Shown here one piece after another: positions 1-61,999 of a stretch of DNA of 64,000 nucleotides. A model generated the notes under the pieces. That model searched no databases. It was not told the DNA's origin and saw only the letters and a program-made list of their open reading frames with translations. The stretch lies in the NCBI GenBank assembly GCA_032718475.1, contig JAUCBJ010008661.1, forward strand, positions 66,523-130,522, given 5' to 3'. A program made the translations under genes and the position numbers. Origin of the DNA: Nemertoderma westbladi. Lineage: Eukaryota; Animalia; Xenacoelomorpha. Position 1 is the first letter of the stretch, and every line of letters starts with the position of its first letter.

Positions 1-2289
1 CGACCATCCTATTTAACCGGATTGGGACGCGGGCATCTAACATCGCCATTTAATCCTTACAATCGGCCAGGATTAACTCCGATACAACCTGCCACGGAAG
101 TCGAGGAGAGTGTCATCAGAAACGCTTTAGACGCCATCCGACAGAAAATCGGAAAGGGAACACAGGATTTTCTAGAGAAACGTAAATTACAGCAGCAGGT
201 CCAATCGGTGAAAGAGTTAGCCTTGCCGCAGTTTGATAGAGAAATCCAAAACCTCGAAGAGGACATCGAGCTTGGACGTACGTATTCTCTACAGGAGTTT
301 CTAGAAGAACGCTTACAGAAACAAGCGGAGGAAAATCAACTAGAGGAGAAACATACGGAAATGGATGAGAGAGAAGAAGCCGCTTTAGCCCAACCCGAAG
401 CTCAGATACTCATAACCGATCTCTACTCTAAAACCGTCCGTCATCCATCGATGGTTCCGCATTTCGGAGACAAACTTTTTGCAAAGATACAACCCCAACC
501 GGTTGATATCAGCATAAGATCGCAAAATCTTATCGCTGACGCTCCTATGTTACAGCGTCCGCCAATCGAGGCCGCTCGAGTTGACGGTATACTCGTTGAA
601 CCTCCGGACAATCGAGCGGATCTTATCCGTCGTATGGTACACGATGTCAACATACGCGCTAGACCTTTACAGAACTCTTTTTATGGAATTAAAGACCACC
701 CTTATTACGTTAATCTGACTCAATATTATATGGTAAAACCAGAAGATCCGACGCATAATTTAAAGTTTCTACCACTAATAAATCCTCTGGACATTGTCGA
801 ACTCGAACAATTGCAAAAACATCTGGATCAGTTAGTAAAGGTAAACTCATTTCGAAAACCATATAACGTTTCTCGAATAGAGAAGGATACAGAACCTCCT
901 TATAATCTCGATGGATTTATTAAAACTCGATTAGTCCATTGGAATCTAGACGTATTATTCGAGGAGGAGAAAATACAAAGATATGGAAATGTGGAGACGT
1001 ATACCACTCGATACATGAAGTATAGTGATCTCCCTGACGCTAATCAATGCGCCACCTTGTGGCATCCAGTAGGGATGACCCTCGAGAACGCCACCAAAGA
1101 GTGGAATGAAACTCTTAATATCATTGAGATGTATGGCGTTGTTACTTACGATAACGAAGGTAGCGTTCCAATCGGAGAATTAGGAACTACGCGCATGATA
1201 CACATACGCGGATTAGCTGGTTCCACTCACGTGTTTACGCGAGCGTGTTCAGACGTGATCGATTATTCCTTTGAAACTCTCACCGAAACGCAAAAGAATC
1301 TCCGACATGGACAATTCGAACTGGCGCAGCGTTACGTCATTGACACCGAACGCAAACCGGCCATGGGTATCGATGGATCGATGTTACCCCAGCCCGTTCT
1401 CGAGATGTTATTCAACGAAAGAATCATTAAAATCGGCTCAGCTGTTTACGGAGATCTCCAAAACGACTTTCGGAATATGGAAAATATCCCCTATCCTTTC
1501 GTGGATACTCAGCTGATAGCTCCTTGGGCCGAAGGTCGAGGTTTCTTTCGCACCATGTATGCTAATGCATCTAGCAACATTACAAAGGTGCAACGAACTT
1601 CCATCGGACATCTTGCTTTTCAGGAATACGGATGGAATTTCAAGGTCGGAAATCCCATCAACTATCAACAAGTATACGGAGACCATTATTCTCGATTATA
1701 CTTTGACGGACCGTTGACCGCACCTGGCGCTGTGTATAGCTTCATGAGTGTTCCACTCCGCCCCTCCTTAGCTATCTACACGATCTTCGAAAACACCGCA
1801 CTTTCCGGTTGGCTAGCCGATGTGTGCAGTCGTACTATACGCGCCCATCCATTAATCCTTGGGACCAAACTCGCTAAGCTAGATGAACATAATAAATTCA
1901 TCCGCTTTGAATGTTTCCGACGATTTTTAACCCCGTTTCGCAACGTGGATAGCCAATTCAAAGACCGCGCTTTGACCAAGCTCAGCTTAAGAGATTCGGC
2001 TGTGGAGAAGTTAGATAGCGCTGGATTTGCTATTTTCAAAGACATTTGTATAATAAACCTGCACTCCTCTGTTATCCAAAGACCTCGAATCCCCACAGGT
2101 TATTCTGTCGTGGAAATTCAGACGGTAGGTCCACTTGAGGAGACGGCCATGCCTACCTCAACTATACAAGGGGAAGACGAACCCATATGTTTAGAATCTG
2201 AAGAGATTCAGCCCCCCACGTCTCGGAGTAGCGATAGCGACTACATATTGGAATGGTATCAAGGTCCACATGTGTCTTACTGCGTATGA
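1..2289 (+). CDS. Retroelement accessory protein: charged/coiled-coil N-region plus DEDDy-like 3'-5' exonuclease domain (WRN-exo/EXD/Mut-7/RNase D fold); 5'-partial
   Basis: Frame is open from nt 1 (RPSYLTGLGRGH...). ExoI-like VVTYDNEG (D 1150, E 1156). ExoII-like LPQPVLEMLFNERIIKIGSAVYGDL (D 1453), resembling the WRN-exo LP..L..LL.D..I.KVG....D pattern. Followed by PFVDTQLIA, SIGHLAFQEYG and an ExoIII-like PLRPSLAIYTIFE (Y 1777, E 1789 in place of D). Confidence 0.72.
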   Translation, partial: RPSYLTGLGRGHLTSPFNPYNRPGLTPIQPATEVEESVIRNALDAIRQKIGKGTQDFLEKRKLQQQVQSVKELALPQFDREIQNLEEDIELGRTYSLQEFLEERLQKQAEENQLEEKHTEMDEREEAALAQPEAQILITDLYSKTVRHPSMVPHFGDKLFAKIQPQPVDISIRSQNLIADAPMLQRPPIEAARVDGILVEPPDNRADLIRRMVHDVNIRARPLQNSFYGIKDHPYYVNLTQYYMVKPEDPTHNLKFLPLINPLDIVELEQLQKHLDQLVKVNSFRKPYNVSRIEKDTEPPYNLDGFIKTRLVHWNLDVLFEEEKIQRYGNVETYTTRYMKYSDLPDANQCATLWHPVGMTLENATKEWNETLNIIEMYGVVTYDNEGSVPIGELGTTRMIHIRGLAGSTHVFTRACSDVIDYSFETLTETQKNLRHGQFELAQRYVIDTERKPAMGIDGSMLPQPVLEMLFNERIIKIGSAVYGDLQNDFRNMENIPYPFVDTQLIAPWAEGRGFFRTMYANASSNITKVQRTSIGHLAFQEYGWNFKVGNPINYQQVYGDHYSRLYFDGPLTAPGAVYSFMSVPLRPSLAIYTIFENTALSGWLADVCSRTIRAHPLILGTKLAKLDEHNKFIRFECFRRFLTPFRNVDSQFKDRALTKLSLRDSAVEKLDSAGFAIFKDICIINLHSSVIQRPRIPTGYSVVEIQTVGPLEETAMPTSTIQGEDEPICLESEEIQPPTSRSSDSDYILEWYQGPHVSYCV

Positions 2290-3253
2290 TTATCGCTATG
2301 CCAATTATGTTTCTCGACAACATTGTCGGCTGTGCGCATCGAGAGACCATATTACGTCTATGGACACCAACGATCTCTGTTCCTATTTCCACGAGCAACC
2401 GTCGATGGAAATCTATTGTGCATATTGTCGGCTTAATAATTTGCACATTTTTGCTGTCTGCCCCCAATTTATGACTCAATGCCATCATTGTCAATTAAAA
2501 GGACACGCCAGCTTTGATTGTCCCTTTAATCATGATTTAGAGAGCGTAGATGAAATGATTGTACTACGTTATATCAGAGCTTGGGAAGCGAACGCTGATT
2601 TACATTGTGATTCACGCCATCGCTATTACCCTGGACGCGCTTACGAAGGAGTTTATGCGTTCCATCCTTATTTGTTTGCCTCCGTCGAGCAGAAATCACG
2701 CCTATCAAGTTATGAACTACTGAAGCGCGTTGGAGAATGTATTTCAACCAAATATGTACGCAAATTTCTCAGGAGCATTAATCCGAGTGACATCTATTCT
2801 TACAACTTAATAAACTTTATCCGTCAAGATCCTGCCTATGGAGACTTATTTGTCAACTCACACCCCGAGTTACAGGAAGTATATCGACGGCCTTACGAGT
2901 ACCGAGCCCGCGAACGCGAGTTGGAAAGAACCATTAAACCAAGGAAGTTTCTAACTGCCTATGGTCCACCCACGGCCCTCGTTCAGACCTCTCGTAAAGG
3001 ACCCGTAAGAGCGGCTGTCTTGAAACGAGCTCTCAAAGCCGTTAGACCCCTCTCCCCGGACGTTGATGTCAATCAACCCGGTACTTCTACCGGCGGATAT
3101 ACCGATCGTAATCCCATACCTTCTGATGCAATCATATTGCACCCTTCACCCAGGAGTTATAGCCCTCCTCGTAAAGTGGCTCGCCCCAAAGAGAAAAGGA
3201 CTCTTGCTAGCTTTAAAAAACTGCGTAAACGCCGTCCGCACAAGAAAGACTAA
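2270..3253 (+). CDS. Accessory zinc-knuckle protein (three CCHC-like motifs, basic C-terminal tail); probably the frameshifted C-terminus of the upstream ORF
   Basis: Motifs CRLCASRDH, CAYCRLNNLHIFAVC and canonical CHHCQLKGHASFDC (C-x2-C-x4-H-x4-C). Ends KKLRKRRPHKKD. Overlaps the upstream ORF by 20 nt in the +1 frame. The C-terminus is conserved in copy B (5856-6185). Confidence 0.72.
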   Translation: MCLTAYDYRYANYVSRQHCRLCASRDHITSMDTNDLCSYFHEQPSMEIYCAYCRLNNLHIFAVCPQFMTQCHHCQLKGHASFDCPFNHDLESVDEMIVLRYIRAWEANADLHCDSRHRYYPGRAYEGVYAFHPYLFASVEQKSRLSSYELLKRVGECISTKYVRKFLRSINPSDIYSYNLINFIRQDPAYGDLFVNSHPELQEVYRRPYEYRARERELERTIKPRKFLTAYGPPTALVQTSRKGPVRAAVLKRALKAVRPLSPDVDVNQPGTSTGGYTDRNPIPSDAIILHPSPRSYSPPRKVARPKEKRTLASFKKLRKRRPHKKD

Positions 3254-3331
3254 CTGTTTAGAGTATTTTTATATTTTAGAAACTGTGATTTTGTATATTT
3301 TATAGACTTAAATCCCATTTTCTGGGAGCGG

Positions 3332-4538
3332 TGTAAAAGCTTTTGTGGGATAACTGATTCGTTTGCCTTGCTGGCCAGTTCCCCCCCGGTCGCTAGAATA
3401 CTCTAAAAGGGATCTATAGCTAAAATAGTGCAAGCTACCAGCTTATTGGCTGATATGCTGTACGAAGGTATCTGGGTTCTGTTCGATCGGCCAACCAGCT
3501 TAGGGAGGTTGCCTCAGCCCTGCTGTCCGTATCGGCCAATAGAATTTGAGTGGGCGTTGATTTTGACCTATCCCAGAGCTACTGAACTGAATTTCCTATC
3601 TGTATGCTCATCCTCTGTGTTGGACGGGAGCTTCGGGGAATAAGGGTAGTTGGTATCCTCGTATAGTCAGGTAGTCATATGATTCTTTATATGATTCTGT
3701 TGTTGTGTTCCCATTTTTCGCCAGACCACCGGCTTTGGGAAGAACTCTAGTAAAACTGCTTAAATTATCGAAAGTATAACTGTTATCTAACTGGTCTAAT
3801 TAACTCACTATTAATCATATAATTCTCCCGAACTTTACTTATTAATTATATTGTTTGTACTGCTATTTACCGTCAGTTATTAATTGTATCGATTTGTTGA
3901 GGAAATATTGCTCTTTGGAGAATACTGATAAATCACCCAAAATTCCCAATTTTCTTGATACACTACAGGTTAGAGAGACAGGCTATACATAACAATTGCG
4001 ATTTATATCAATGTGGTGTGTATTGAATCTAATGTTATTTAGCAGACCCTACATGAGTCAATTGCTGCTCTCTTTATGTGTGATCAAATTTACTGACGGT
4101 CGGCAGAATAGTGTGCATGATTGTGATTGGTAACAAAGCATTTCCTAAAGAATGCGCCTTATACTTTAATCATAAGCAGTATCGTTGCGTTTAGTATAAG
4201 TCCTAGCTCTGTTTAAATAGATAGAGCGCCACGTCCTAAAGGAACTGTTAATATTTCCCGAAAGCTAATAATATCTGTCAGAAATTACATATTAGTGATC
4301 AATCGAATAATACAGTAGGTTTACACTGCAATCTTACACTGCAATAATAATAATTTAAGCATCCGAATTCAGCCTCCCGGGTGTATCCATCGGGTGAATG
4401 ATCGCGCATGGGCTGGCTTCGGTTAATGTTTTGTTTATTAGCATAAAATATTGTCGTATGCTAAAGGTGTTTTAATGAACTAAAAGACATATAAATTTTG
4501 GCAGGTTAAACTGCTAAAGGTCTTCAAAAGCGCGAACA
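3332..4538 (+). repeat. 3' LTR of copy A (~1.2 kb, TGT...ACA)
   Basis: Starts TGTAAAAGCTTTTG after the PPT and ends ...AAAAGCGCGAACA. About 3710-4538 aligns with the reverse complement of ~14078-14930, and the homology stops at GCGAACA. Confidence 0.78.
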
Positions 4539-5561: not shown

Positions 5562-5779
5562 AGATTTCGTCATCTAAGCCACACTGTATTAAGAGTATTT
5601 TGGCGTATTGCGGCATAAAATGGCTTGTTATGTCCGCTAAAGTAAACATACAGAAAAATGGCTTTTTATTTCCGCTAAAACACCTACACAGTAAGAAAAA
5701 CGGCTTTTTATGTCCGCTAAAACACCTACAGAGTACAGAGCGGGGAAAATGACTAGTTATATCCGCAAAAGCCTTTACA
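5562..5779 (-). repeat. Truncated 3' LTR of copy B (first 218 bp only)
   Basis: Nearly identical to 15058-15275 (about 5 mismatches by eye). Identity ends abruptly at 5562. Confidence 0.9.
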
Positions 5780-5855
5780 CCGCTCCCAGAAAATGTGATT
5801 TAATTCTATAATATAAAAAATCACAGTTTCTAAAATATAAAAATACTCTAAACAG

Positions 5856-6720
5856 TTAGTCTTTCTTATGCGAACGGCGTTTACGCAGTTTTTTGAGGCT
5901 AGCAAGAGTCCCTTTCTCTTTGGGGCGAGCCACTTTACTAGGAGGGCTATAACTCCTGGGTGAAGGGTGCAATACAATTGCGGTCGGTGTATCGGTCGGT
6001 CGAGGTACCCGGTTGATCGGTATCAACCTCAGTGGAACGAGGTCGAACAACCTTTAGAGCGCGTTTTAAGACAGCAGCTCTTACTGGTCCCTGACGGGTC
6101 GTTTGCACGAAAGCGGTAGGTGGACCGTGTGTAGTGAGAAATTTCCTCGGTTTGATGATTCTTTCCAACTCGCGTTCTCGGGCTCTATCGGAATCGATAT
6201 GCCTCTCCTCGAGCTGATTTTCCTCCGCTTATCGTTGGAAGCATTCGTCCAAAACTCTTGCAGAAAGTAGAGTCGTCCAAGTTCGATATCTTCTTAGAGA
6301 TTCTGGATTTCCTGATCGAACTTAGATAACGCTAATTCGTTTACCGCTTGGACTTGCTGCTGCAATTTACGTTTTCCTAAACAATTGTAGGTTCCTTTTC
6401 CGATCTTTTGACGAATAGTGTCCAACGCGTTTCGTACAACTCTCTCCTCCACCTCGGTGACAGGTTGTATCGGGTTAAACCGGGACGATGATACGGTTGA
6501 ATGGCGATATTAGATGTCCGCGTCCCAATCCGGCTAGGTAAGATGGGCGAATATTTAGGGAGCCCACAACCGGAGTGCCACCGACTAATTGTTCGGATAA
6601 CACTAGATCTTTGAACAGTGAGTACAGTTCGGGAGGATACGTGATACTATTAGGATCAAGAGTCTGAGGTCTCACTAGGGAGTGAGGAGGTCTGACCGAG
6701 TATTCCGGAACTCTGATCAT
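5856..6720 (-). pseudogene. Internally deleted, frameshifted copy of the exonuclease/zinc-knuckle accessory gene
   Basis: 6720-6475 gives MIRVPEY...RPSYLAGLGRGHL, matching the start of the copy A ORF. 6475-6195 matches copy A ~60-360. After a junction at ~6186-6194 it reads RARERELERIIKPRKFLT...KKLRKRRSHKKD, matching the copy A ORF2 end. Several stops and frameshifts. Confidence 0.88.
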
Positions 6721-6943
6721 AGGTTTATTTAAGGATCGTTTGAGTCAAGCGAGCGTAGGTGATACATCGAACAAGTTTCACTCGAAACTCCCGTAAATAT
6801 AGCGAGTAAAACTGTGCTTAGAGCAACGTCTCCGCGGATGTTTATGTCTTTCCGTTTGTTGGTTGGGTCTTGGGCATTCATCGCAATAATACCAAAGACG
6901 CAGGGGATACCGTAGCGGAAACGCGGGTGATCTTTCTTCAGTT

Positions 6944-7390
6944 TTACAATGTTTCTCTCAAGAATTCCAAATAAATGTTGGAGTCACCGCGTTTATCCGG
7001 TTCTTTAAAGTCTTCTCTTTCGAGTCGATTTCGAATAGAATTTTCGCATTCGATTCTCAGTTTATCGTTCCGACTCAGATGGGTATGATATTTAAATAGG
7101 ACTATTTCCCTTTTGGTGTCGACATCGTCCATATCGTGTAAATCGATAGGATGACCAGTAGTTAAGAAGTCCATATGCGTATCATTACGATGCGTATAGC
7201 GAGCAGTGAATTTTCGATAGTCCAATTCACGAGTGAGTTGCTCCTGGGACATTGGCGGTTCGATATAACGACCATCGTTCTCCGTAGTAGTTGGACTAGC
7301 GTCGCCGCGTATTAAGCTATCAATAAACGCTTGCAACGGTAGAGTATATCGCTCCCTGATACCAAGATCATCTTCTATCAACTCAATCAT
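6944..7390 (-). CDS. Accessory ORF of unknown function (148 aa); possibly the N-terminus of the same large accessory protein
   Basis: ATG-initiated, charged, protein-like composition, same strand as pol. A shifted frame just downstream continues KLKKDHPRFRYGIPCVFGYCDECPRP...HKHPRRRC (~6943-6780). Confidence 0.55.
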   Translation of the reverse strand: MIELIEDDLGIRERYTLPLQAFIDSLIRGDASPTTTENDGRYIEPPMSQEQLTRELDYRKFTARYTHRNDTHMDFLTTGHPIDLHDMDDVDTKREIVLFKYHTHLSRNDKLRIECENSIRNRLEREDFKEPDKRGDSNIYLEFLRETL

Positions 7391-8211
7391 AGCTGCTATA
7401 TGAGTTTATCAATATTATAATTAGTTATAATTAGGCTAGCGGGCGTCGCTGCCTACCCCTCACGGCCCCCGGACAGTGCAAGATCCTCAGCGCTGATGTA
7501 CTGTCGCCGCTGTGCCTATCGCCAACATAGTAGCTGCACAACGACAACAACAACTAGCGCGAGTCACTCCACTGTCCGTCCCAAGGGCTTAGATTTACTT
7601 CAGGTTCTTACTGCAGAGGTAGAACTACTTTCACAACTGCGACTCGCTACTGTAAACACACTTTAGTAGTAACATTCACCTATAAACGCACAAATTCCAC
7701 ACAACTGTCACAAACCGCACACATTCGGGCCATTTGTCCTTTAGTCAAGTGCCTTCCAGAATGCCACGTTATTATTATGTATCCTTGGATACTAGCAGTG
7801 TGCTATTTATTCCTTATGCTATTCAATGGGGCAAGCTTTATTGTTCTTTTAACTCACTTCTAATTCTAGCATGGTTGTTGCCATGGTGACATTATGTAAA
7901 GCTAGCAGTAGAATTAGGGTAATTCCCATGCATACAGATCTGGGATGCTATTTAATAGTAATTCTTTAATTGTCAATATTCCTCTTTATACATGATTTTA
8001 TGAATTTTATCGGCTATTGACTATATATTGGAGATTCTCGCACACTAATATACTTAATAGGGTGAATCTCCGCTCCCATGATCTATTAATTAATGGAATT
8101 TTGGGAATGTTATAAATTGTATAAAAATGACAATTTATCAAATTCATTAAAAGAGATGAATTTAAATTTATTCCCGTAAATTTTATTATTTAATGTTGGA
8201 ATAAGCACAAT

Positions 8212-8541
8212 TTTATTCCAGAGCATGTCTGGGGACTGGGATCCTTGATTCTAGGGAATTTGTCCTTTTAAGAGTATCGGTAAGTGCTACGATATCTTAA
8301 TCGACTAGAAATTTAAAGGATCTAAATTTTAACAGATTTTAATTTATATATTTTCTAGAGTTAACTTGTAAGTATTTACTCTATTGTATTTGTTTGACAG
8401 ATTTTATAAATATTAATAGTTAATATTTAAGATGGGCACCGATTTATTCCAGAACATGTCTGGGGACGTTAGCCACTGATTCTAGAATTTTGTCTTTCAA
8501 GTATATCGGTGGGTGCCGCGATATCTTAATCGACTAGAATT
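8212..8541. repeat. Two diverged ~100-bp direct repeats in the pol-accessory spacer
   Basis: TTTATTCCAGA(G/A)CATGTCTGGGGAC...GATTCTAG...TATCGGT..GTGC..CGATATCTTAATCGACTAGAA at ~8212-8311 and ~8443-8541. Confidence 0.82.
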
Positions 8542-9178
8542 GCAGATGGTCAAAGGGTACAACAGATTTATTTTGCGTTTTACGCTACTGTTAAAGGGAC
8601 ATCACGCTACTATATGTATTATTTAATATCCGGTAGGAGAGCAATATTGTAAGAAGCAATGTCAGTGAGAAGAGGCAAGTCGTTTCCAAGGTCTACCCAG
8701 AGCTTGGTTTAGCCGAGACACGAGGATCTGAACTTTGCATTCCTAATACTCTACTTACCAATAATACTTGAGTATAGTAGGAGCTTTATTGTACTTTAAT
8801 AAGTACGGATATTTCATCTTACTGTAGTCACGTATTTATAATATGATACGGACAGTAAGGAAAGAGAAAAAGAATTATTTCTCGCCGTCGCACTAAATAT
8901 ATATAATATAAGTAATTAAGTAATAAGACTAATATATATTGCACTAATCTACTAGATAATCACTAAAACAGCATTCTACTAAATAAAATTAAAGAAAACG
9001 ATTATAATAAGAGTACATAATAATACATACATAAATATAAAATAATAAAAATATATGAAATAATATATTCACACACCCACTCCAGACGCTGTTACGTTGG
9101 GGAGTCCCTGGATGTTTGTTGGATTAGGGAGGTGGTCGTGGGAAGAGTATCTTGCCTTCCATAGTTTCCGGACAGTTC

Positions 9179-11093
9179 TCAGTCTCTTTCCAGTAAACAT
9201 AAACGACCAACTGGGCGATTGAGTTGTTGTGTTTCGAACACAATTCCAGGTTTCTTAAAGTTACGTCGCATGATGACGAGTTCTACCGATCGCACCAAAC
9301 CATCATCTGAGATATGAGTCTCGATGATACGACCTGTCTGCCACCGCTTACGTGGAAGATCTGATTCCACAATAAGGACCATGTCTCCGGCGCTGACGTT
9401 TTCTTGCTGCGCAAACCACTTGGTTCAAAGTTGTAGCGTAGGCAGATAATGTTTTTCGAAATGGTCAGCGAAACGACGGGATAATAACTGCATAAGTTGC
9501 CAAGTTTGTCGGCAGTATTCGTCTCCGTCCGTGATTTCCGATCGTGGGAGCATGGCTACAGGTTTCTTCAGTAGGAAGTGCGCGGGTGTTAGCGCTTCCA
9601 GGGAGTCGTGACTCAATGAGACTGGCATAAGCGGTCTTTCGTTAAGATAGGCGGCGATTTCTTCCATTAACGTCCGCAAAAGTTCGTCGGTGAGATACGC
9701 GCGGCACGGCACTATAAAGTGAAATGCGGTCTTCACGCTTCTTATTAATCTCTCCCAACTTCCTCCCCACCAAGGGGCGTCGGCGGCGTTGAAGGTCCAG
9801 CTAGAAGCTGTTACCCTTAGCTGATCGTCCACCTGTCTTTGGTTCCAATCTTTGACGTAAGCCTTGATTTCATTGTTGGCGCCAATGAAGTTCGTTCCCT
9901 TATCAGATCTCATCGTGTTGCTAGTTCCAAAGCGAGCGATCTGTCGGCGTAGACTCAGTATAAAACTGTTGGTAGATAGATCGTTCACCATATCTAAATG
10001 GATCGCTCTACAAGTCATACAGACAAAGATGACACACCATCGCTTGACTATAGTCCTGGCACGATATACTTCAATAGGGCCAAATAAATCCACACTGGTA
10101 TTAGTAAAGGGTGGTTCATAGAAGCTTACTCGTTCCCTAGGTAATTCTGCCTCTCGCTGTGTTAAAGGCCTACTGAATGCTTTCCTACAGGGTATACAGT
10201 TCCTAAGAACTTGGTTCAGAGCTCTACGGGGTTTATGAAAATAATAGCGACTTCGAATTTCGCTAAGAACTCGTTCTCTACCAGCATGGTAAAGCTTACT
10301 GTGAACATCTACAATCATCTTGATTTGTATTTCAAGATTTCTAATGAGTATGGGAAACTTAGTGTCAAAGGATAATGGAGCATTAGTTAGTCTCCCTCCA
10401 ACGCGTATTAACCCATCTATCATTGTGCTAGAGAAACGATCCCTTAAGCGCATCTGTGGATTTCTCAACCACAGGAAATACTTATCGGAATCCTCATAGC
10501 ATTGCAGGAGTCTCAGTATCTGCTTATTGGTTTCTTCATGCTCCTGGTAACTGATCATCTCCTTCAGAAATCTGTCTGATATCTTGTATTTGGGAAGATC
10601 TTTAACAACATGGACCTGCGCAGATGTCAGTGGAGCGGTATCACTAGCGATCTTCATCCTGGAGTAGTGATGATGAAAACATCGCTTTAAATAAGCAACG
10701 GCCTTACAAAGCCGATTCCAGGAGCTATAGTGATGTATCGCTCTCTGCAGGAGAGGTGAGAGTCCTTGCGAGACGTCTGGTGTTCCAGATTTCCAATCTC
10801 TCTCCCTGATTTCCACAACAGACTTATTTGTGGCTGGGGATTTTGGATCCAAAGCGTCGTCTCCGGAAGTGTGTAGTACAGACAGATCTATCACGGGTTT
10901 AAATAACTTCGATTTACTCGCCCGGGTTTTAGGTTTGACTTTCTCCGCTCCCTTGGCTTGTCTAATCTCCGCCGTGGTAAGATGAGGAGGCCATTCATCT
11001 TCTTCCTTGCTTAGGAAGTCGGGTCCACCTAACCAGTCTGGAGTATCTATCAGTTCTTGTGGAGTTGCTCCCCTGGAGGCGATGTCGGCTGGA
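9179..11093 (-). pseudogene. BEL/Pao integrase region (HHCC zinc finger, DDE core, C-terminal domain) with a premature stop
   Basis: VHSKLYHAG...CIPC, VDLFGP, RSDKGTNF, GGSWERL, LNERPL, LTPAHFL. The C-terminal WQTGRIIETHISDDGLVRSVEL...RPVGRLCLL is separated by a stop at 9425-9427. Confidence 0.92.
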
Positions 11094-12577
11094 TTAATCG
11101 TCCCAGGGCAATGTCTCCATTGATCTATCTTCGTGCGACTGTGGAAGTATAATGGCTACTCTGTTGGTAACGAAGACGCTGAACTGACAGACTTCATTGG
11201 TTATATACTCCAACACGAGTAAAGCATCGGTCCAATAGACAGTTTTCTCCAGTGGATAGTCGATCTGTTCTGTTACATTCCGGCCGATGGCTGTAGCGTA
11301 TAGAGCCGCTTTTAACTCCGCTCGAGGAACTTTCAACTTGTTGTTTATCAAGGCCTTAGAGGTAACCAAGGCGACCTTAATTCCATCCGGAGTTTCAACC
11401 CTCAGGTAGGCTACTATACCTATTCCCATGTCGCTGGCGTCTCCAAACACATGGAGTTGATAGGAATACATAAGGAGAACGTGACCAAAATAAGAACGGG
11501 AAATCGTAAAATTCTCGATGGATGGTAGAGAATCTTCCCATTTCATCCACTTCTTTAATAGTTCTCCCTTAAGTGGATTGTCCCACGAGTGGTTTTCAAG
11601 CCACATTTGTTGTACTAGACTCCGAGCAATCAATATAACTGGGCTAATAAATCCCAATGGATCGAAATAAGTGCTCAGGATACTTAGACAAATCCGTTTA
11701 GTTCGAATTGGATTATCTCGCTGTTTTAGCTGGAAAAACAGGATATCTCTCTCCGTGTCCCATTTCAAACCAAGCGTCTTGGTTTCTGGAAGATCGTCCT
11801 TGATAAGGTCTAGATCTTTAACTCCTCGGTCTTCTACCGGGATCGATTCCAGAAATTCACGGGAGTTACTGGTGAATTTAGTTAATCGAAATCCACCTCT
11901 TTTCAAGCACTCTACCGTTCCCTTGGCGACATCAATGGCTTCTTCCACCGATGGGAGGGACTTTAAATTGTCGTCCATGTATATATCCCGTTTGATGTTG
12001 TCGATAACCTCTTTGGAGAAGGCGTCCCGGTGGTCATCAGCAGTGGTGCGCACTACTGAGCAGGCGTTTGAAGGGCTCGAGATGATCCCAAAAGCTTGGA
12101 TGGTCATCCAGTACTCCACCGGTTTCTGGTTGAGGTCTCCTTCAGGCCACCACAGAAATCGTAGGCTGCCCGATCCCTATCCAGCGCCTTAACTTGTAAG
12201 AACATGCCTTCTATATCGGAGGCGAAAGCGATCGAATATTGTCGTAATCTTAAGAGTATTCCCAACAAGGATTGGAGTAAGTTGGGTCCCGGCAACAACT
12301 CGGAGTTAAGGGATTGGCCCATGTAGAGGGCGGAGCCGTCAAATACTACCCGGACTTCGTTGGGTTTACCGGGTTTGGGAACGTAATGATGTGTTAAATA
12401 GTACGTTCTCTCAGTTATAGGTGTTTCTTCCGGTACTCGCTCCGCATATCCCTTGTCAATGAATTTCTTCAGCTGGGTCTTGTACATCTCCTTAGCTGAA
12501 GCATTTGCCGTAAGGTGTCGATGTAGTTGCGCAATTCTCTTCTCCGCCAAGGGTCGGTTGTTTATAAAATTGGGTTC
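11094..12577 (-). pseudogene. BEL/Pao reverse transcriptase and RNase H, frameshifted
   Basis: YYLTHH, VRVVFDGS, GPNLL, SDIEGMFLQV; then FGIISSP, YMDD, KTLGLKWD, FDPLGFISP; RNase H motifs LHVFGDASD, PRAELKAA and YWTDA. Frameshifts near 12150 and 11120. Confidence 0.93.
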
Positions 12578-14000
12578 TCACCGTCGGAAAGGCCGACCAA
12601 TCTCATACCTACCTTGATCTTTAAGAAAACGGGTAGTCGTTTCCTGTATCTGCTTGGCTCTTTCCTCTTCTACCGATAGGGCCTTATCGTAGGAATTGGG
12701 CTCTACAGCCTCTTGAGTAAAGAATCGTACGCCGTGTTCATCGCGAGTCTTCGCATTGTAACGATCTATCACTTCATTCAGTTCGTCGTTGTAATCGACT
12801 TGTCCCGCTGGATGGATGAGGTGACACAGGTTCACTTGGTTTTGCCAAGTTTCATTTTCCGTAAGGAGGTTGATGGTATTCTCCTCTTCGAATAGTTGAT
12901 GTATATCGTCATTATCTGAGGAGTATGGTGTTCCCTCAGGTGTGTCGTCTCCCTCACTGATTTCCTCTTCCCATTCACTCACCTGGTAGACCTGTTCTTT
13001 AGGTAGCCTTTCCATGAGAGTTCTACGGGAAGGTCCAGTAAAGTACCAACCTACTCTAGTTCTTCCCGCATAGGTTTGCAATGGTTGCGGTTGAGCAGGC
13101 CGTTTCTCTAATGTCTCAAGCGCCTCATGCGCATTTTGGCTGATGAGTATTTGTACCCCTGGGTAGTCGGTGTTGAATCTAGGTATCTCATGCTGCTGGG
13201 TGAAATCGTCTTCATCCCAGTTATAAGGTTCCACTTGGCTGGTAACGAAGTTCTTTATCGCCACCATTTTTACTGACCTTATACTGTGTTCTCCTAGTTC
13301 ATCCTGGGGGGTGGACAACGCGCCTACATAGTAGTCTGTAGCTACTGTAGATTTCCAAACCTGCATAATTCCTGAAAGGTTCAACTTAGTTCGGAACTTG
13401 GGTTGTCCAGCAAATATGTCTTCGGCTAGTTCTTTGTCGATGAATGTTCCTGTGCTGCCAGAGTCAAGGAGGGCGTTCACTTTATAGCTCCTTTTTAACC
13501 CATGGACTCTCAACTGCACTACGGGAAATTCTCGGATTCCTACGTTGGAAGTTGGCGCTTTCCAAGATGGTTGTCGGTCAGGAATAGTTAGGGGGAGCTC
13601 ACTATCGGTTTCAGTCTCATACGTAAGTGCTCGATACACTGCGGTGTTTATTAGATAACAGGATTCGTTTTCGTCGGAGAATTCATCCGTGTAGAATCCT
13701 TCCATCTCAGAACTGTGGTCAGTGTCGTTCACATCACTGAATTGGACATGTAGTTCGGACTCACTTACCTGACTCGGGCTGTTTCTTTCGAATTCGGTCT
13801 GCAATAAGATATGATGTTTCGCGCCGCACTTAGCACACCTTGCGTCGGAGTAACAGGTTCGCCGTTGGTGTCCTTGTCTGAGACAATTATAACACAACCG
13901 CTTCGCGTCTGTCTTTTAAGGATTTCTTTAAGAATTCCTCACACACACTTAAACGGTGGGGCCCGTCGCACAACGCACATTTTGGTTTGATGTTACTTAC
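12578..14000 (-). pseudogene. C-terminal gag zinc knuckles plus aspartic protease; gag N-terminus missing
   Basis: CALCDGPHRLSVC (~13980-13942), CYNCLRQGHQRRTC, CAKCGAKHHILL, and protease motif ALLDSGS. Only ~80 bp separate this region from the 5' LTR. Confidence 0.88.
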
Positions 14001-14077
14001 TTTACCTTGGGTAGTGTTGTGCACACTCGTTCACTTTATTGCCTACGTTGCAATAAAGAAACTAGAATAACTGTTAT

Positions 14078-15275
14078 TGTTCGCGCTTTTAGACCTTTAG
14101 CAGTTTAACCCGCTAATTTTAGGTGTCTTCTAGTTTATAAATCGACTTTAGCCTATAACAAGTATTCGTTGCATATAAGATATAAAGTTACATTAGCCGA
14201 AGCCAGCCTATGCGCGACCATTCACCCACAGTTAAGGGAGACTGGATTCGGAGGCTCTGACCTTATTGCGGTGTAGACTTACTGTACTATTCGATTGATC
14301 GTTAATATATAATCTCTGACAAATATTATTTACTTTCGGGAAATATTAACAGTTCCTTTAGGACGTGGCGCTCTAAGTATGTAAACAGAGTTATGACTTA
14401 CACTAAACACAACGGGATGGCTAATGATTTTCGTATAAAGCGTATTCTTTAGGAAATGCTTTGTTATCTGTCACACTCATGCACACTACCGCACACTGCT
14501 GCACACTGATCTGCCGACCTTCACTAAATTTGATCATATATAAGGAGAATAGCAACTGACACATGTAGGGATTATGAAATAGCATTCAATTCACTCCAAA
14601 ACCACTATAATGTAAGTCGCAGTTGCTACAGGTAACTGGTCCCTCTTACCTTCAGTATATCAAGAAGATTGGGGTTTTATGATTATTTATCGATATTCTC
14701 CAAATATAACAACATATCCATCAACTTATCACAATTAATAACCGACAGTAAATAGCAGTAAAATAATGCGGTGAAAGGTATGTATAGTATGATATGGGCT
14801 GCGCCGTGTGTGCTGAGCCGTGATAACAGTTATACGTTCCTATAATCAAAGCCGTCGAATGTTTGGCTAAAGTCTGAAACTAAGAATAATTCCAAAGCCG
14901 ATGTTCTGGGCTCAGGAAAAGGTAAACAAAGACCGTCATGCATTGCGCGATTTCCCGTAGGCTTCTGTGCAAATAAAATGAAAATCGCTCTGATTGGTCG
15001 AGTGAGCTGAACAAAGAGAGTTAAGAAAGCTCCACATCGACATCAAAATGAGCTGATAGATTTCGTCATCTAAGCCACACTGTATTAAGAGTATTTTGGC
15101 GTATTGCGGCATAAAATGGCTTGTTATGTCCGCTAAAGTACACATACAGAAAAATGGCTTTTTATGTCCGCTAAAACACCTACACAGTAAGAAAAACGGC
15201 TTTTTATGTCCGCTAAAACACCTACAGAGTACTTTGCGGGGAAAATGACTAGTTATATCCGCAAAAGCCTTTACA
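14078..15275 (-). repeat. 5' LTR of copy B (~1.2 kb)
   Basis: Minus strand starts TGTAAAGGCTTTTGCGG and ends ...GCGCGAACA. U3 part has about three ~46-bp tandem units (GGCTTTTTATGTCCGCTAAA...) and a CCAAT-like box (TGATTGG ~14991). Confidence 0.82.
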
Positions 15276-15301
15276 CTACCGGTAGGCGGGGTATAGCTAT
15301 T

Positions 15302-17138
15302 TTTATTTTTTTTTTTAAATATACACCCCAAGCGGGGTAAACTGGCTTTTTAATTAATCATTCAATATATAAAATAAATAAAACTGAGGCATTATTTGGT
15401 AGTCTATAAATTACTAAAACAATCACCGGTATATATAATAGAATCACTCAGAGGCTAATTGTGCAGCAGAAGGGGAGGTTGGACAGTTAATAATATGGAG
15501 GCGGTCTTGGCAGCACTCGCCACAGAATATGCAAATACACTGCGGTGATAGGTCGTGGAATGAAGTTTTGGTCGTACATAGTTTATGGTGGAACCCATGA
15601 CAGGTTGCTCGCGTAATTACGTGTCGGTTTCGCTGGCCCGGGGCTGTCCAGCCCATTGATGTGAACGCCGGCCCTCTCCGATATCCCTCAGACTCGAATT
15701 TTGCAATCCTTTCCCTTCGAAAGGCAAAATATTGGTCAAGAACATCAGGCTTGAAACTAGCTTTTGTGTTGTTTTTCAGTATGTCCTCTATCTGTGTTCC
15801 TTCTCCTATAATATTCAGTGCCAAGGTTGACGAAGCGGTTTTGTGAAGGCCGAGTAAACGTTTTGCATATGTAGCTTTGATTTTGTCCAACTCCTGTAAA
15901 TTATGTAGTTTTAGAAATCTGCTATAGGTAGGAAATGCGTATAGTACCATAGGTGAGATTTTGCCATTGTATATTTTCATTGCTGTAGAAACTGAAAGTA
16001 ATTGTAAATTCTTTAGGGATCCAATAATCTGGTAAGCGTTTTATTTTTTGGATTTAATGTGGTTTGTAAAGCATAGGCTCGATAGTATTGTTAATCCAAG
16101 GTATTCATATTCGTTTGCTAACAACACTGGGTTTCCGTTATAAGTGAACTTGTCAGTTTCCGATAGCCGACCGCCCTTTCTAAATTTAACTATTTTTGTT
16201 TTTTTCAGGTTAAGCTGCATTCCATTTGTTTGGCACCATTCGTATATAGCATCGAGAGATAGTTGAATTCCTTCTTTGCTCTTCGAATACACCACAAGGT
16301 CGTCAGCGAAAAAGATAAATTTAATCATGTGGTAGATATTTCTGAGGATATCAGCGAGATCGGCAACGTATAGTACAAAAGGCAGAGGAGATAAGCAGTC
16401 CCCCTGTAGGACGCCTCGGAGCTGGCGAATAACCTTGGACAGTTGGAGTCCGTCGTAGATCCGTATATAGTTATGAAGCAAGTCTTTTATGAGCTCGAAT
16501 GTCTTCCCTTTGATTCCTAGATTATGTATCTTGCACAGAAGTTTCGCACGGGAAAGCATGTCAAATGCCTTCCTAAAGTCAATAAAAAGTGCATAGATTA
16601 CCCGTTCTTTGCGCCTATTTGATTGCAATGCAGTGTATATGTCATCTAGAAATTTGGTGATCGCTTGTATAGTAGACTTTCCGGGTTGAAATCCAAACTG
16701 CTCGGGTGGAATGCCGTTTGAGAGAAATAATCGGATGCGTTTACTTAAAATCGATGTGAGTATCTTTAGACAAACGGATATTAGCGCTATTCCACGGTAA
16801 TTATCTGGGTCGGCAGTCGCACCTTTCCCCTTGTAGAGGATTTTGATAATGCTAACTCTCCACTTATCAGCAATCTTACCACTATTTAGGCAGACATTGT
16901 ATATAAGAGTGAGGTAGACAAGGATATAGGGTATTGCCTGCTTCAAGTGTTCGTAATAGACTCCATCATAACCTGCTGCCTTCTTTGTAGAGCTGTGATA
17001 AACCGACTCTATTACATCTTCACTATCTATTGGAGAGTTATACCATGCTTGTTCAAGCTTATCTTGTTCGGTTGTTTCAGGGATTTCTGGACAGTTTCCC
17101 GGAATGTTGTCTTCACCTAGTAGTGTGTTAAAATGTTT
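15302..17138 (-). mobile_element. 5'-truncated non-LTR retrotransposon (RT plus C-terminal Cys/His motif), with A-rich tail and 11-bp TSD
   Basis: NYRGIAL, QFGFQPGKST, FIDFRKAFD, GVLQGDCLSP, FADD, YEYLG; C-terminal CIFCGECCQDRLHIINC. One in-frame TAA at 16041-16043. T-run at 15300-15316. TSD GTATAGCTATT at 15291-15301 and 17139-17149. Confidence 0.92.
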
Positions 17139-17343
17139 GTATAGCTATTAATAACCAGTAGGGCCTAGCTATATTATTATAACATGGCTCCAAACGCCAC
17201 CATAAATATAAGCTAACTTTTATATAACATAATTTATGTCATTTTTACATTTATTTTCACAGCAACTAATTTAATTTGTGCAGTTTCTATCACTTATAAT
17301 ATATATACAATAATTTCGTAATGTTACAATTTTGGAATAAAAC

Positions 17344-21073: not shown

Positions 21074-21409
21074 TTAAAGGGCCATTTTTGGCTTTTGAGG
21101 GACATGTCCTCTGGAAGCCATGGTGGCTCTTTGGGGGACACAGTAAGGATTGCATTTTGCGATACATGGCTCTTGGGGTACATATGTCCTAGCGAAGCCA
21201 CTTACAATGGAACCCATGTTTGGTTTGTATTGAATTGCTTATCATTTTCTTATTAAATTGTCTCTTGCTTGTTAATTAATAACGTTTTCAGTGTTATTTT
21301 GTTTTAATTAATATTCGTTTCAATTTTTTTTAATTTAATTTTAATTTAAAAACTTAGTTTTGGTCGAAGTTATTCAAAACTCTTTCACACATTTTAACTA
21401 CATACATAT

Positions 21410-60504: not shown

Positions 60505-61999
60505 TGAAATAAAGTGTATCACATACCGTTACAATGAAGTGAAGTGTATCACATACCGTTACAATGAAGTGAAGTGTATCACATACCGTTACAATGAAGT
60601 GAAGTGTATCACATACCGTTACAATGAAGTGAAGTGTATCACATACCGTTACAATGAAATGAAGTGTATCACATACCGTTACAATGAAGTGAAGTGTATC
60701 ACATACCGTTACAATGAAGTGAAGTGTATCACATACCGTTACAATGAAGTGAAGTGTATCACATACCGTTACAATGAAGTGAAGTGTATCACATACCGTT
60801 ACAATGAAGTGAAGTGTATCACATACCGTTACAATGAAGTGAAGTGTATCACATACCGTTACAATGAAGTGAAGTGTATCACATACCGTTACAATGATGT
60901 GAAGTGTATCACATACCGTTACAATGAAGTGAAGTGTATCACATACCGTTACAATGAAGTGAAGTGTATCACATACCGTTACAATGAAGTGAAGTGTATC
61001 ACATACCGTTACAATGATGTGAAGTGTATCACATACCGTTACAATGAAGTGAAGTGTATCACATACCGTTACAATGATGTGAAGTGTATCACATACCGTT
61101 ACAATGAAGTGAAGTGTATCACATACCGTTACAATGAAGTGAAGTGTATCACATACCGTTACAATGAAGTGAAGTGTATCACATACCGTTACAATGAAGT
61201 GAAGTGTATCACATACCGTTACAATGAAGTGAAGTGTATCACATACCGTTACAATGAAGTGAAGTGTATCACATACCGTTACAATGAAGTTAAGTGTATC
61301 ACATACCGTTACAATGATGTGAAGTGTATCACATACCGTTACAATGAAGTGAAGTGTATCACATACCGTTACAATGAAGTGAAGTGTATCACATACCGTT
61401 ACAATGAAGTGAAGTGTATCACATACCGTTACAATGAAGTGAAGTGTATCACATACCGTTACAATGATGTGAAGTGTATCACATACAGTTACAATGAAGT
61501 GAAGTGTATCACATACCGTTACAATGAAGTGAAGTGTATCACATACCGTTACAATGAAGTGAAGTGTATCACATACCGTTACAATGAAGTGAAGTGTATC
61601 ACATACCGTTACAATGATGTGAAGTGTATCACATACCGATACAATGAAATGAAGTGTATCACATACCGTTACAATGAAGTGAAGTGTATCCCATACCGTT
61701 ACAATGAAGTTAAGTGTATCACATACCGTTACAATGAAGTTAAGTGTATCACATACCGTTACAATGAAATAAAGTGTATCACATACCGTTACAATGAAGT
61801 GACGTGTATCACATACCGTTACAATGAAGTGAAGTGTATCACATACCGTTACAATGAAGTTAAGTGTATCACATACCGTTACAATAAAGTGAAGTGTATC
61901 ACATACCGTTACAATGAAGTGAAGTGTATCACATACCGTTACAATGAAGTGAAGTGTATCACATACCGTTACAATGATGTGAAGTGTATCACATACCGT
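60505..61999 (+). repeat. 30-bp minisatellite, ~50 near-identical copies
   Basis: GAAGTGTATCACATACCGTTACAATGAAGT repeated in exact phase with no indels. Confidence 0.99.

What the first reader, a model, noticed from the sequence alone, without database searches (positions are those of the whole stretch)
1..3253. BEL/Pao retrotransposon carrying a DEDDy 3'-5' exonuclease plus zinc-knuckle cargo in the env position
Seen: between the integrase (located via copy B) and the PPT/LTR there is a >3-kb sense-strand coding region with no evident signal peptide or transmembrane segment, so it does not look like env. It has ExoI (YDNE), ExoII (IIKIGSAVYGD), VDTQ and ExoIII-like (PL...IYTIFE) motifs in the right order, then three CCHC-like knuckles and a basic tail. 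Established: DEDDy nucleases of the WRN-exo/EXD1/Mut-7(Nibbler)/RNase D group trim nucleic-acid 3' ends, some acting in piRNA/siRNA pathways; CCHC knuckles bind single-stranded nucleic acid; canonical BEL/Pao elements encode only gag-pol, sometimes env. Inference: this is a captured RNA-trimming module that could counter small-RNA silencing, proofread or process RT intermediates, or mature element RNA. I recall an exonuclease-like extra domain in a nematode BEL element, so novelty needs a literature check.
Basis: partly seen in the sequence, partly recalled or inferred. Interest (0 to 1): 0.88.

Follow-up and report, generated by a model that had tools for sequence, protein, structure and literature searches.

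The report
Nuclease third gene in BEL/Pao retrotransposon
A much-repeated jumping gene of an animal genome, most likely of the BEL/Pao group, carries an extra gene kept by selection for a predicted RNA-trimming nuclease with zinc knuckles where relatives may carry an envelope gene; such cargo is known from rotifer Gypsy elements but was not found described for this group.

Summary
The observation largely holds. Copy A (1-4538) ends an LTR element whose last gene encodes an RNase D/WRN-like (DEDDy) domain, three CCHC-type knuckles and a basic tail, with no membrane segment, 79 nt before a 1.2-kb LTR. Sequence profiles support the nuclease call (RNase D model E 0.0016; profile-profile 92%); folds failed. 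One distant relative (30% identical) has nuclease and knuckles in one frame. The gene is under purifying selection (A versus B pN 0.07-0.10, pS 0.62-0.78) and is repeated in three DNA runs. Corrections: copy A has a private frame break; the last acidic motif is YxxxE, not YxxxD; the gene starts 1.8 kb after pol; and copy B, which holds the BEL/Pao pol, has deleted nuclease and knuckles, so the link to pol rests on shared flanks and LTRs (about 80-85%). DEDDy third genes are published for rotifer Gypsy elements (PMC5408684); ten literature searches found none for BEL/Pao, and the recalled nematode case could not be checked. Verdict: new variant of a known kind. Most likely an accessory RNA 3'-trimming enzyme acting against host small-RNA silencing; activity and target are untested.

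The parts
1..2289 (+). Copy A third gene, first frame (762 codons, open at the window edge): coiled/acidic N-terminal region, then the nuclease-like domain
   Evidence: no Pfam hit
1120..1845 (+). RNase D/WRN-like (DEDDy-type) domain: ExoI DxE at 1150-1158, ExoII D at 1453-1455, VDTQ at 1501, ExoIII-like YxxxE at 1777-1791
2195..2289 (+). Overlap of the two frames; holds a frame break private to copy A
   Evidence: table 4 (all depth at that place in 4 of 4 runs differs from A by a small length change, 16 contigs); P0001 is one frame
2324..2521 (+). Three CCHC-type knuckles (CX2CX4HX9C, CX2CX5HX4C, CX2CX4HX4C)
   Evidence: zf-CCHC_3 E 0.068; score 67 to P0001 knuckles, 0 of 1000 shuffles
2522..3253 (+). 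Conserved C-terminal region of unknown family and basic tail; stop at 3251-3253
   Evidence: (pN 0.067, pS 0.62 over 2904-3050)
3318..3332 (+). Polypurine-tract-like stretch before the 3' LTR, identical in copy B
3333..4538 (+). 3' LTR of copy A, 1,206 nt, TGT...ACA
14078..15276 (-). 5' LTR of copy B, 1,199 nt; 74% identical to A's LTR over A 3850-4538
14067..14077 (-). 11 nt directly after B's 5' LTR that pair with offset 443 of both LTRs (self-priming-like site in place of a tRNA site)
9181..14035 (-). Copy B: gag end with triple knuckle, protease, RT, RNase H region, integrase, DUF5641; most of gag deleted; broken by two frame shifts (near 12.2 and 11.1 kb) and two stops (near 12.58 and 9.42 kb)
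7392..9180 (-). 1.8-kb AT-rich non-coding spacer between pol and the third gene; repeated in other copies
6198..7391 (-). Copy B third gene, 5' part (first ATG at 7391; broken); 6549-6198 matches A 1-355
5860..6185 (-). Copy B third gene, 3' end after a deletion that removed A 356-2903 (nuclease and knuckles)
   Evidence: this joint in one contig at depth 30
5562..5780 (-). Truncated 3' LTR of copy B, 5 mismatches in 219 nt to its 5' LTR

Best explanation
This repeated LTR retrotransposon family, most likely BEL/Pao, carries a third gene under purifying selection whose product is predicted to be an RNase D-like 3'-5' exonuclease joined to three zinc knuckles, and it would likely trim RNA 3' ends to weaken host small-RNA silencing of the element. 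Shown: the anatomy (pol, 1.8-kb spacer, third gene, PPT, LTR, pieced together from two related copies), many copies, selection on the reading frame, absence of a membrane segment. Inferred from profiles: the DEDDy-type fold. Inferred only: that the gene is expressed on its own (spliced or internally started RNA, about 1,350 codons in unbroken copies), that D-E-D plus a Glu in ExoIII still bind two metals and cut, that the knuckles hold single-stranded RNA for the active site, and that the target is host small RNA or its precursors. The protein would act in trans, so copies such as B can lose it and still be mobilised. Odds: third gene of this BEL/Pao family about 0.82; DEDDy fold about 0.92; active enzyme about 0.6; counter-silencing as main role about 0.35 overall.
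For: Nuclease: RNase D E 0.0016 and 0.01; ExoII and P-x-P-x-x-D-T-Q align with E. coli RNase D; hhalign 92.5%, E 5e-7; 50 column shuffles at most 2%; Atlas features: best rows PF01612, scores 0.81 and 0.86, leads only. ExoI D, E and ExoII D of the window and of P0001 fall in columns that are D, E, D in 71 of 71 references. Five candidate active-site residues (D, E, D, Y, E) are shared with P0001 at 30% identity. Selection: A versus B pS 0.78/pN 0.10 (73 codons) and pS 0.62/pN 0.067 (48 codons), lost in shifted frames; 8 of 9 listed differences in the nuclease domain are synonymous against about 0.23-0.30 expected. Link to pol: B's two LTRs (5 mismatches in 219) enclose pol and both ends of the gene; A and B share PPT, LTR length and LTR ends; all 30 of 30 bins from gene to pol are covered in 3 of 3 runs and high-depth contigs bridge the pol end and 8491-8769. 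Role: the gene is optional (0 of 120 related polyproteins hold the domain; two independent deletions remove it), and the same enzyme type was picked up by Gypsy, Penelope-like and Dada elements (PMC5408684, PMC3706591), which suggests a benefit outside the core LTR chemistry (inference). Mut-7/Nibbler and EXD1 act in small-RNA pathways (PMC5408684 discussion; otherwise recalled).
Against: No copy here shows pol and nuclease together, and no genome was held. ExoIII has Glu for the invariant Asp; in the joint alignment the window's ExoIII did not fall in register and is placed only through P0001. Pfam misses the domain, PDB sequence searches find nothing. The significant profile matches cover mainly the ExoII region. 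The 9 differences are from the 40 best-supported rows of about 1,060, not a full count. Nothing here bears on substrate, expression or small RNAs. Rodriguez et al. found no clear link between DEDDy ORF3 and copy number and call activity undemonstrated (PMC5408684).
Confidence: 0.36

Rival explanations
1. The enzyme is active but works on the element's own nucleic acid inside or near the particle: it would trim the 3' end of the self-made primer, of the genomic RNA, or of cDNA ends, with the knuckles acting as a second nucleocapsid-like grip.
For: The element shows a self-priming-like site: 11 nt after the 5' LTR pair with the same offset (443) in both LTRs; 13 of 5000 shuffled LTRs and 0 of 2054 internal 25-mers (both LTRs) reach this. 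P0001's knuckles best match HIV-1 nucleocapsid (E 1e-4) and Air2 (E 0.064). PMC5408684 proposes 3'-end processing of element RNA.
Against: Close-as-available relatives replicate without a fused domain (0 of 120; separate genes not testable). Earlier unchecked scan notes report self-priming BEL/Pao elements without mention of a nuclease. The gene is separate from gag-pol, so packaging is not assured.
Confidence: 0.25
2. The domain is a weak or dead nuclease used as an RNA-binding scaffold, like EXD1 or Egalitarian, for example to localise element RNA or to sequester small-RNA factors.
For: ExoIII Asp is replaced by Glu against 71 of 71 references; long insertions flank the core; an EXD1-like cluster is second in the Atlas feature list for P0001 (0.77). 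PMC5408684 notes inactive DEDD derivatives in piRNA biogenesis.
Against: D, E, D, Y and the acidic ExoIII residue are all kept between proteins only 30% identical; rotifer ORF3s also carry a D-to-E change with otherwise intact residues (PMC5408684).
Confidence: 0.17
3. The third gene and the long LTRs belong to another (for example Gypsy-type) element, and the BEL/Pao pol in copy B is a nested or ancestrally fused passenger.
For: 106 nt after the pol stop a purine-rich stretch is followed by TG and an AT-rich region with TATAAATA (8840) and AATAAA (8790), like a short LTR. A deletion sits between B's 5' LTR and gag. Earlier unchecked notes describe exonuclease-knuckle third genes in Gypsy-type elements. 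The listed contigs do not bridge 7667-8488.
Against: No second copy of that AT-rich stretch in the window; a contig at depth 1049 crosses its likely 3' end and contigs at summed depth 2122 cross its start (run X5), so a one-off insertion is unlikely; no other pol remnant lies between the LTRs; no loose end at these places among the 18 listed of about 2,540; the self-priming-like site matches what unchecked notes report for BEL/Pao of similar hosts.
Confidence: 0.14
4. The region is a captured host or virus gene fragment carried passively, without a role for the element.
For: A kinetoplastid-rich cluster with PF01612 plus zf-CCHC and giant-virus PF01612 clusters are the nearest feature matches, so donors with this architecture exist; several derivatives delete the domain.
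Against: Strong purifying selection between subfamilies that are near saturation at silent sites; no introns evident in the open frames; no close cellular homologue among 1.84 billion representatives.
Confidence: 0.04

Closest known systems
DEDDy-type ORF3 of bdelloid rotifer LTR retrotransposons Juno and Vesta, and of Terminons (Rodriguez, Kenefick, Arkhipova 2017, PMC5408684; parts 1-3 of 5 and figure legends read)
   Same: RNase D-like 3'-5' exonuclease gene downstream of pol in the env position, no membrane segment, one acidic position changed from D to E, function untested.
   Different: Here the pol is BEL/Pao; the change is in the last position (D-E-D-E) whereas the paper gives DEED; three CCHC knuckles and long N- and C-terminal regions are fused; a 1.8-kb spacer precedes the gene; the family is high-copy; selection between subfamilies is evident. 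Sequence kinship with the rotifer proteins was not tested.
Belpaoviridae (BEL/Pao) (ICTV profile PMC8742986, whole text read)
   Same: LTRs of about 1.2 kb, triple gag knuckle, PR-RT-RH-IN order, Pao-type RNase H region and DUF5641, PPT.
   Different: The profile lists only gag, pol and optional env, a tRNA site and 4.2-10 kb; here the third gene is a nuclease, no tRNA-type site is seen, and an unbroken element would be roughly 14-15 kb (estimate from the two copies).
RNase D / Rrp6 / WRN-exo / EXD / Mut-7 (Nibbler) DEDDy exonucleases (PF01612)
   Same: ExoI DxE, ExoII D, the DTQ motif after it and a PL...Y helix in order.
   Different: ExoIII acid is Glu; insertions of about 30 residues after the third strand and before ExoIII; no HRDC hit; knuckles fused.
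Dada DNA transposons of Laccaria and Ectocarpus with a DEDDy domain (PMC3706591, passages read)
   Same: A mobile element carrying a DEDDy domain.
   Different: There it is inserted in a DDE transposase and proposed to trim DNA ends; here it is a separate gene of a retroelement.
P0001 (unnamed 648-residue protein from a 9.4-kb metagenome contig)
   Same: Nuclease domain 30% identical with the same D-E-D-Y-E set, followed by three knuckles.
   Different: Lacks the long N-terminal region; region after the knuckles does not align; its genomic context could not be read.

Membership tests
BEL/Pao (Belpaoviridae) | Pol with PR-RT-RH-IN order and Pao-specific domains | tested here: met
   Copy B: Asp_protease_2, PF05380 E 4.8e-37, Integrase_H2C2, PF18701 E 7e-15; 120 of 120 listed relatives carry PF05380, 28-40% identity
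BEL/Pao (Belpaoviridae) | Triple Cys-His box in Gag | tested here: met
   Read from the sequence at about 13,980-13,800; hallmark stated in PMC554778
BEL/Pao (Belpaoviridae) | LTRs of 0.2-1.2 kb with TG...CA and a PPT before the 3' LTR | tested here: met
   1,206 and 1,199 nt, TGT...ACA; shared PPT
BEL/Pao (Belpaoviridae) | tRNA (Arg/Gly) primer-binding site | tested here: inconclusive
   No TGG after B's 5' LTR; an 11-mer pairing with the LTR stands there instead, but a deletion follows within about 40 nt and only one 5' end is available
BEL/Pao (Belpaoviridae) | RT phylogeny inside the family; subclade | not tested
   No tree built; no labelled references. Named near relatives are from fish, sea urchin, barnacle, brachiopod, cnidarians and insects
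BEL/Pao (Belpaoviridae) | Third gene and BEL pol on one full-length element | tested here: inconclusive
   Shown for the gene's two ends in copy B; nuclease part only in copy A; contigs too short to span
DEDDy 3'-5' exonucleases | ExoI D-x-E | tested here: met
   In register with RNase D D28/E30 and 71 of 71 references
DEDDy 3'-5' exonucleases | ExoII D | tested here: met
   In register with RNase D D85
DEDDy 3'-5' exonucleases | ExoIII Y-x3-D | tested here: not met
   Y-x3-E in P0001 (joint alignment) and in the window (pairwise alignment only); hence filed as DEDDy-like, not canonical DEDDy
DEDDy 3'-5' exonucleases | RNase H-like DnaQ fold | tested here: inconclusive
   Profile support 92.5%; both AlphaFold models unusable, pLDDT 30 and 35
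DEDDy 3'-5' exonucleases | Two-metal 3'-5' exonuclease activity | not testable with these tools
   Needs an assay
Envelope (env) gene | Signal peptide and transmembrane anchor | tested here: not met
   Highest 19-residue hydropathy 1.37 and 0.95 in A, 0.47-1.53 in the 5' pieces of B; no dedicated predictor run
Rotifer Juno/Vesta DEDDy ORF3 clade | Groups with those proteins in a tree; DEED motif | not tested
   Sequences not available; motif differs (D-E-D-E here, DEED in PMC5408684)

The most novel reading that the evidence does not exclude
A large, self-priming BEL/Pao lineage has independently acquired, possibly from a large DNA virus, an active DEDDy-like RNase with a new D-E-D-E site and three knuckles that disarms piRNA/siRNA guides, making it the first animal LTR retrotransposon with an enzymatic suppressor of small-RNA silencing and explaining its high copy number.
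Probability: 0.15. Interest if true: 0.85.

Novelty: new variant of a known kind. Interest (0 to 1): 0.55.

Why it matters
It extends nuclease third genes from rotifer Gypsy elements to a second LTR superfamily, with direct evidence of selection on the gene, which the rotifer study did not find. Repeated independent capture suggests a general accessory function of retroelements. The open nuclease domain of copy A and the unbroken relative P0001 make the long-open question (active or not, on RNA or DNA, for or against silencing) testable in vitro.

Tried and rejected
Structure: two single-sequence AlphaFold jobs gave pLDDT 29.6 and 34.6; a Foldseek run on the second had no match at E<=0.001 and is meaningless; the Atlas held no model. 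Homologue searches: none at E<=0.01 among 2,460 candidates for the window domain; P0001 found only itself among 7,989; no related loci in metagenome contigs or viral contigs; no tblastn match in phages or plasmids; PDB sequence searches blank for the nuclease; PHROGs uninformative. The genomic context of P0001 could not be read. No genome is held for the window, so copies could not be counted or aligned. Expression: no RNA holder listed; run X4 is only guessed to be RNA and is not used as evidence. Contig depths are not copy numbers and are used only as presence and bridging. Two-sequence MAFFT alignments A1-A3 misplace ExoI; the register used is from E-INS-i and the joint alignment; the hhalign value of 95% used a pair taken from the joint alignment and is biased, so the 92.5% is quoted. 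The dN/dS script stopped on its last control row; the tail block 3128-3250 is nearly identical between A and B and uninformative (pS 0.105, pN 0.053). The region after the knuckles does not align with P0001 (982 of 1000 shuffles score as well). A bacterial promoter scan of the spacer was at chance level and is not relevant. Env was rejected for lack of hydrophobic segments. An insertion into copy A (instead of a deletion in B) was rejected because both frames stay open across the two junctions, the B joint is seen in one contig at depth 30 and all bins of the nuclease region are covered in 4 of 4 runs. Literature: searches (0 papers; 8 papers, 7 listed; 1; 30 of 698 listed, none with the family name; 32 of 38 listed; 1; 7; 11 of 13 listed; 2), 107 (0) showed no BEL/Pao element with an exonuclease gene by listing or abstract start; 'exonuclease' occurs 0 times in the main text of PMC3118150, PMC9094657, PMC554778, PMC2774666 and bioRxiv 10.64898/2026.03.22.711591. 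Malik et al. 2000 and the Terminon paper were not held; Repbase, GyDB pages, subscription papers and all supplements were not seen, so an earlier report in nematode Cer elements is not excluded.
Full report
Question. No genome is held for this window, so the work rests on the two copies in the window, on public contigs and on protein searches.

Anatomy. Copy A fills 1-4538 on the plus strand. It has two overlapping frames, 1-2289 (762 codons, open at the edge) and 2195-3253 (352 codons), a purine-rich tract and, 79 nt after the stop, an LTR of 1,206 nt from TGT to ACA. Copy B lies on the minus strand from 15276 to 5562: a 1,199-nt 5' LTR (74% like A's over A 3850-4538), a deletion of most of gag, a broken BEL/Pao pol, a 1,791-nt spacer, the start of the third gene at 7391, the same PPT and 219 nt of 3' LTR with 5 mismatches to its 5' LTR. 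The pol is BEL/Pao by PF05380 (E 4.8e-37), PF18701 (E 7.4e-15) and its relatives: 120 of 120 listed (of 1,233 at E<=1e-20) carry PF05380; 87 of 88 alignments that reach the pol end leave fewer than 20 residues, so pol ends normally. B matches A 1-355 (76%) and then A 2904-3355 (82%) with nothing between: B has deleted nuclease and knuckles. The joint is seen in one contig at depth 30, whereas 30 of 30 bins of A are covered in 4 of 4 runs. Adding B's 5' part to A's length gives about 1,350 codons for an unbroken gene (length estimate only).

Frame break. At one place inside the overlap 2195-2289, all depth in 4 of 4 runs (16 contigs) differs from A by a small length change (table 4), and the relative P0001 has nuclease and knuckles in one frame. 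The break is therefore private to copy A and one reading frame is inferred for the family.

Is it a DEDDy nuclease? Pfam gives no hit and PDB sequence searches are blank. In favour: NCBIfam RNase D models match residues around ExoII (E 0.0016 and 0.01); E. coli RNase D aligns there directly, 13 of 43 identical, including ExoII Asp and the DTQ motif. A search of 1.84 billion representatives returned one protein, P0001 (E 1.6e-6), with a weak PF01612 match (E 0.2) and a knuckle match; the nuclease parts score 157 against at most 55 in 1,000 shuffles and the knuckles 67 against at most 55. A profile of 71 bacterial PF01612 domains (70 of 70 loci used plus RNase D) scores the window frame 9.9 and P0001 11.7 bits, against 6.6 and 3.0 at most in 500 shuffles each. 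The pair against that alignment gives hhalign 92.5%, E 5e-7, with 50 column shuffles at most 2%. Atlas features rank PF01612 clusters first for both proteins (0.81, 0.86; leads only). In the joint alignment ExoI D, E and ExoII D of both proteins sit in columns invariant in 71 of 71 references; P0001 has Y and E where references have Y and D; the window's ExoIII did not fall in register there and is placed by the pairwise alignment (PL...YTIFEN with PL...YIYCEN). No hydropathy window suggests a membrane segment.

Selection. Between A and B, pS is 0.78 and pN 0.10 over 73 codons of the N-terminal part and pS 0.62, pN 0.067 over 48 codons after the knuckles (dN/dS 0.05); shifted frames give ratios above 1. 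Within the nuclease domain 8 of the 9 differences listed are synonymous, against 0.23-0.30 expected (P about 5e-5 to 4e-4); these come from the 40 rows shown of about 1,060, and outside the domain 3 of 10 listed rows in the gene are synonymous. None of the listed rows changes a candidate catalytic residue, which is not proof of invariance.

Link to the BEL pol. It is indirect. For: B's LTR pair encloses pol and both ends of the gene; A and B share PPT, LTR length and ends; 30 of 30 bins of B are covered in 3 of 3 runs; in run X5 contigs cross the pol end into the spacer (8947-9189), the stretch 8491-8769 and the spacer-gene border (7256-7665) at depths of several hundred to two thousand; one X5 contig joins B's 5' gene region to A's knuckle region (by eye). 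Against: an LTR-like AT-rich stretch follows pol, 7667-8488 is not bridged by listed pieces, and unchecked earlier notes describe exonuclease-knuckle third genes in Gypsy-type elements. Prompted by unchecked notes on self-priming BEL/Pao elements, I tested the 5' LTR end: the next 11 nt pair with offset 443 of both LTRs (13 of 5,000 shuffles; 3 of 2,054 internal 25-mers in B's LTR, 0 in both). This fixes the LTR boundary and fits a BEL-type LTR, though self-priming is also known for Tf1/sushi Gypsy elements (recalled). I put the link at about 0.82.

How it likely works. The gene is optional: none of 120 related polyproteins holds the domain (separate genes could not be checked) and two independent derivatives delete it, so it would act in trans. 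A DEDDy-like domain with single-strand-binding knuckles is most simply an RNA 3'-trimming enzyme. Because such domains were captured by Gypsy, Penelope-like and Dada elements with different chemistries (PMC5408684, PMC3706591, PMC6431247 passages), I favour a role against host small-RNA silencing (0.36) over processing of the element's own primer, RNA or cDNA (0.25), a dead RNA-binding scaffold (0.17), a non-BEL owner (0.14) or passive cargo (0.04). All functional steps are inference; no expression data were available (no RNA holder listed).

Comparison with what is known. Rodriguez et al. 2017 (PMC5408684; parts 1-3 of 5 and legends read) describe RNase D-like DEDDy ORF3s in rotifer Juno and Vesta elements, acquired at least twice, with a DEED motif and no demonstrated activity; reviews repeat this (PMC5718144, PMC6338049, PMC6431247; passages). 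The ICTV profile (PMC8742986, whole text) lists only gag, pol and env for Belpaoviridae. Ten searches and term look-ups in five BEL/Pao papers found no BEL/Pao exonuclease gene; PMC11662393 (passages) was irrelevant. Earlier scan notes hold no BEL/Pao exonuclease finding but several for Gypsy-type elements.

Verdict. A real, selected, high-copy accessory gene; DEDDy-like with a non-canonical last acid; probably the third gene of a large BEL/Pao family. The concept is known, the host superfamily, knuckle fusion and selection evidence appear new. New variant of a known kind, interest 0.55.

Noticed in passing
window 14077-14067 (-), pairing with 14833-14823 (-) and 3776-3786 (+): The 11 nt right after B's 5' LTR are the reverse complement of a site at offset 443 in both LTRs, a self-priming-like signature; the 11-mer is almost palindromic and a shorter form recurs at 4243 and 14354, so a transcription-factor site is an alternative.
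   Followed up: partly
window 3333-3780 versus 15276-14830: The first about 440 nt of the A and B LTRs are near background similarity while the rest is 60-85% alike, as if the promoter part was swapped; B's holds a 42-nt tandem repeat, A's holds CCAAT-like boxes.
   Followed up: partly
window 9072-8735 (-): AT-rich LTR-like stretch after pol with a purine-rich lead-in, TATAAATA and AATAAA; may be an internal promoter or the relic of an older LTR.
   Followed up: partly
window 8078-8070 (-): A 9-mer identical to the core of the PPT occurs once in the spacer; its only other occurrences in the first 25.5 kb are the two PPTs.
   Followed up: no
window 9220-10943 and 11127-12903 (joints): Deletion derivatives lacking integrase and lacking RT are present at high contig depth in 3 of 3 runs; one contig in X5 joins the 5' part of the third gene (near 7016) to A 2171, skipping the nuclease (loose ends, compared by eye).
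   Followed up: partly
window 25865-59395 and 60505-61999: A 35-nt satellite of about 33 kb with strong strand skew, and a 30-nt array of about 50 copies at 97% identity.
   Followed up: no
window 16041-17144 (-) and 21358-23667 (+): Two non-LTR reverse transcriptase frames; the second also matches DUF6451.
   Followed up: no
Atlas results for window 901-2100 and P0001: Nearest feature matches are giant-virus PF01612 clusters (0.81) and a Euglenozoa-rich cluster with PF01612 plus zf-CCHC (0.86); leads only for the donor.
   Followed up: no
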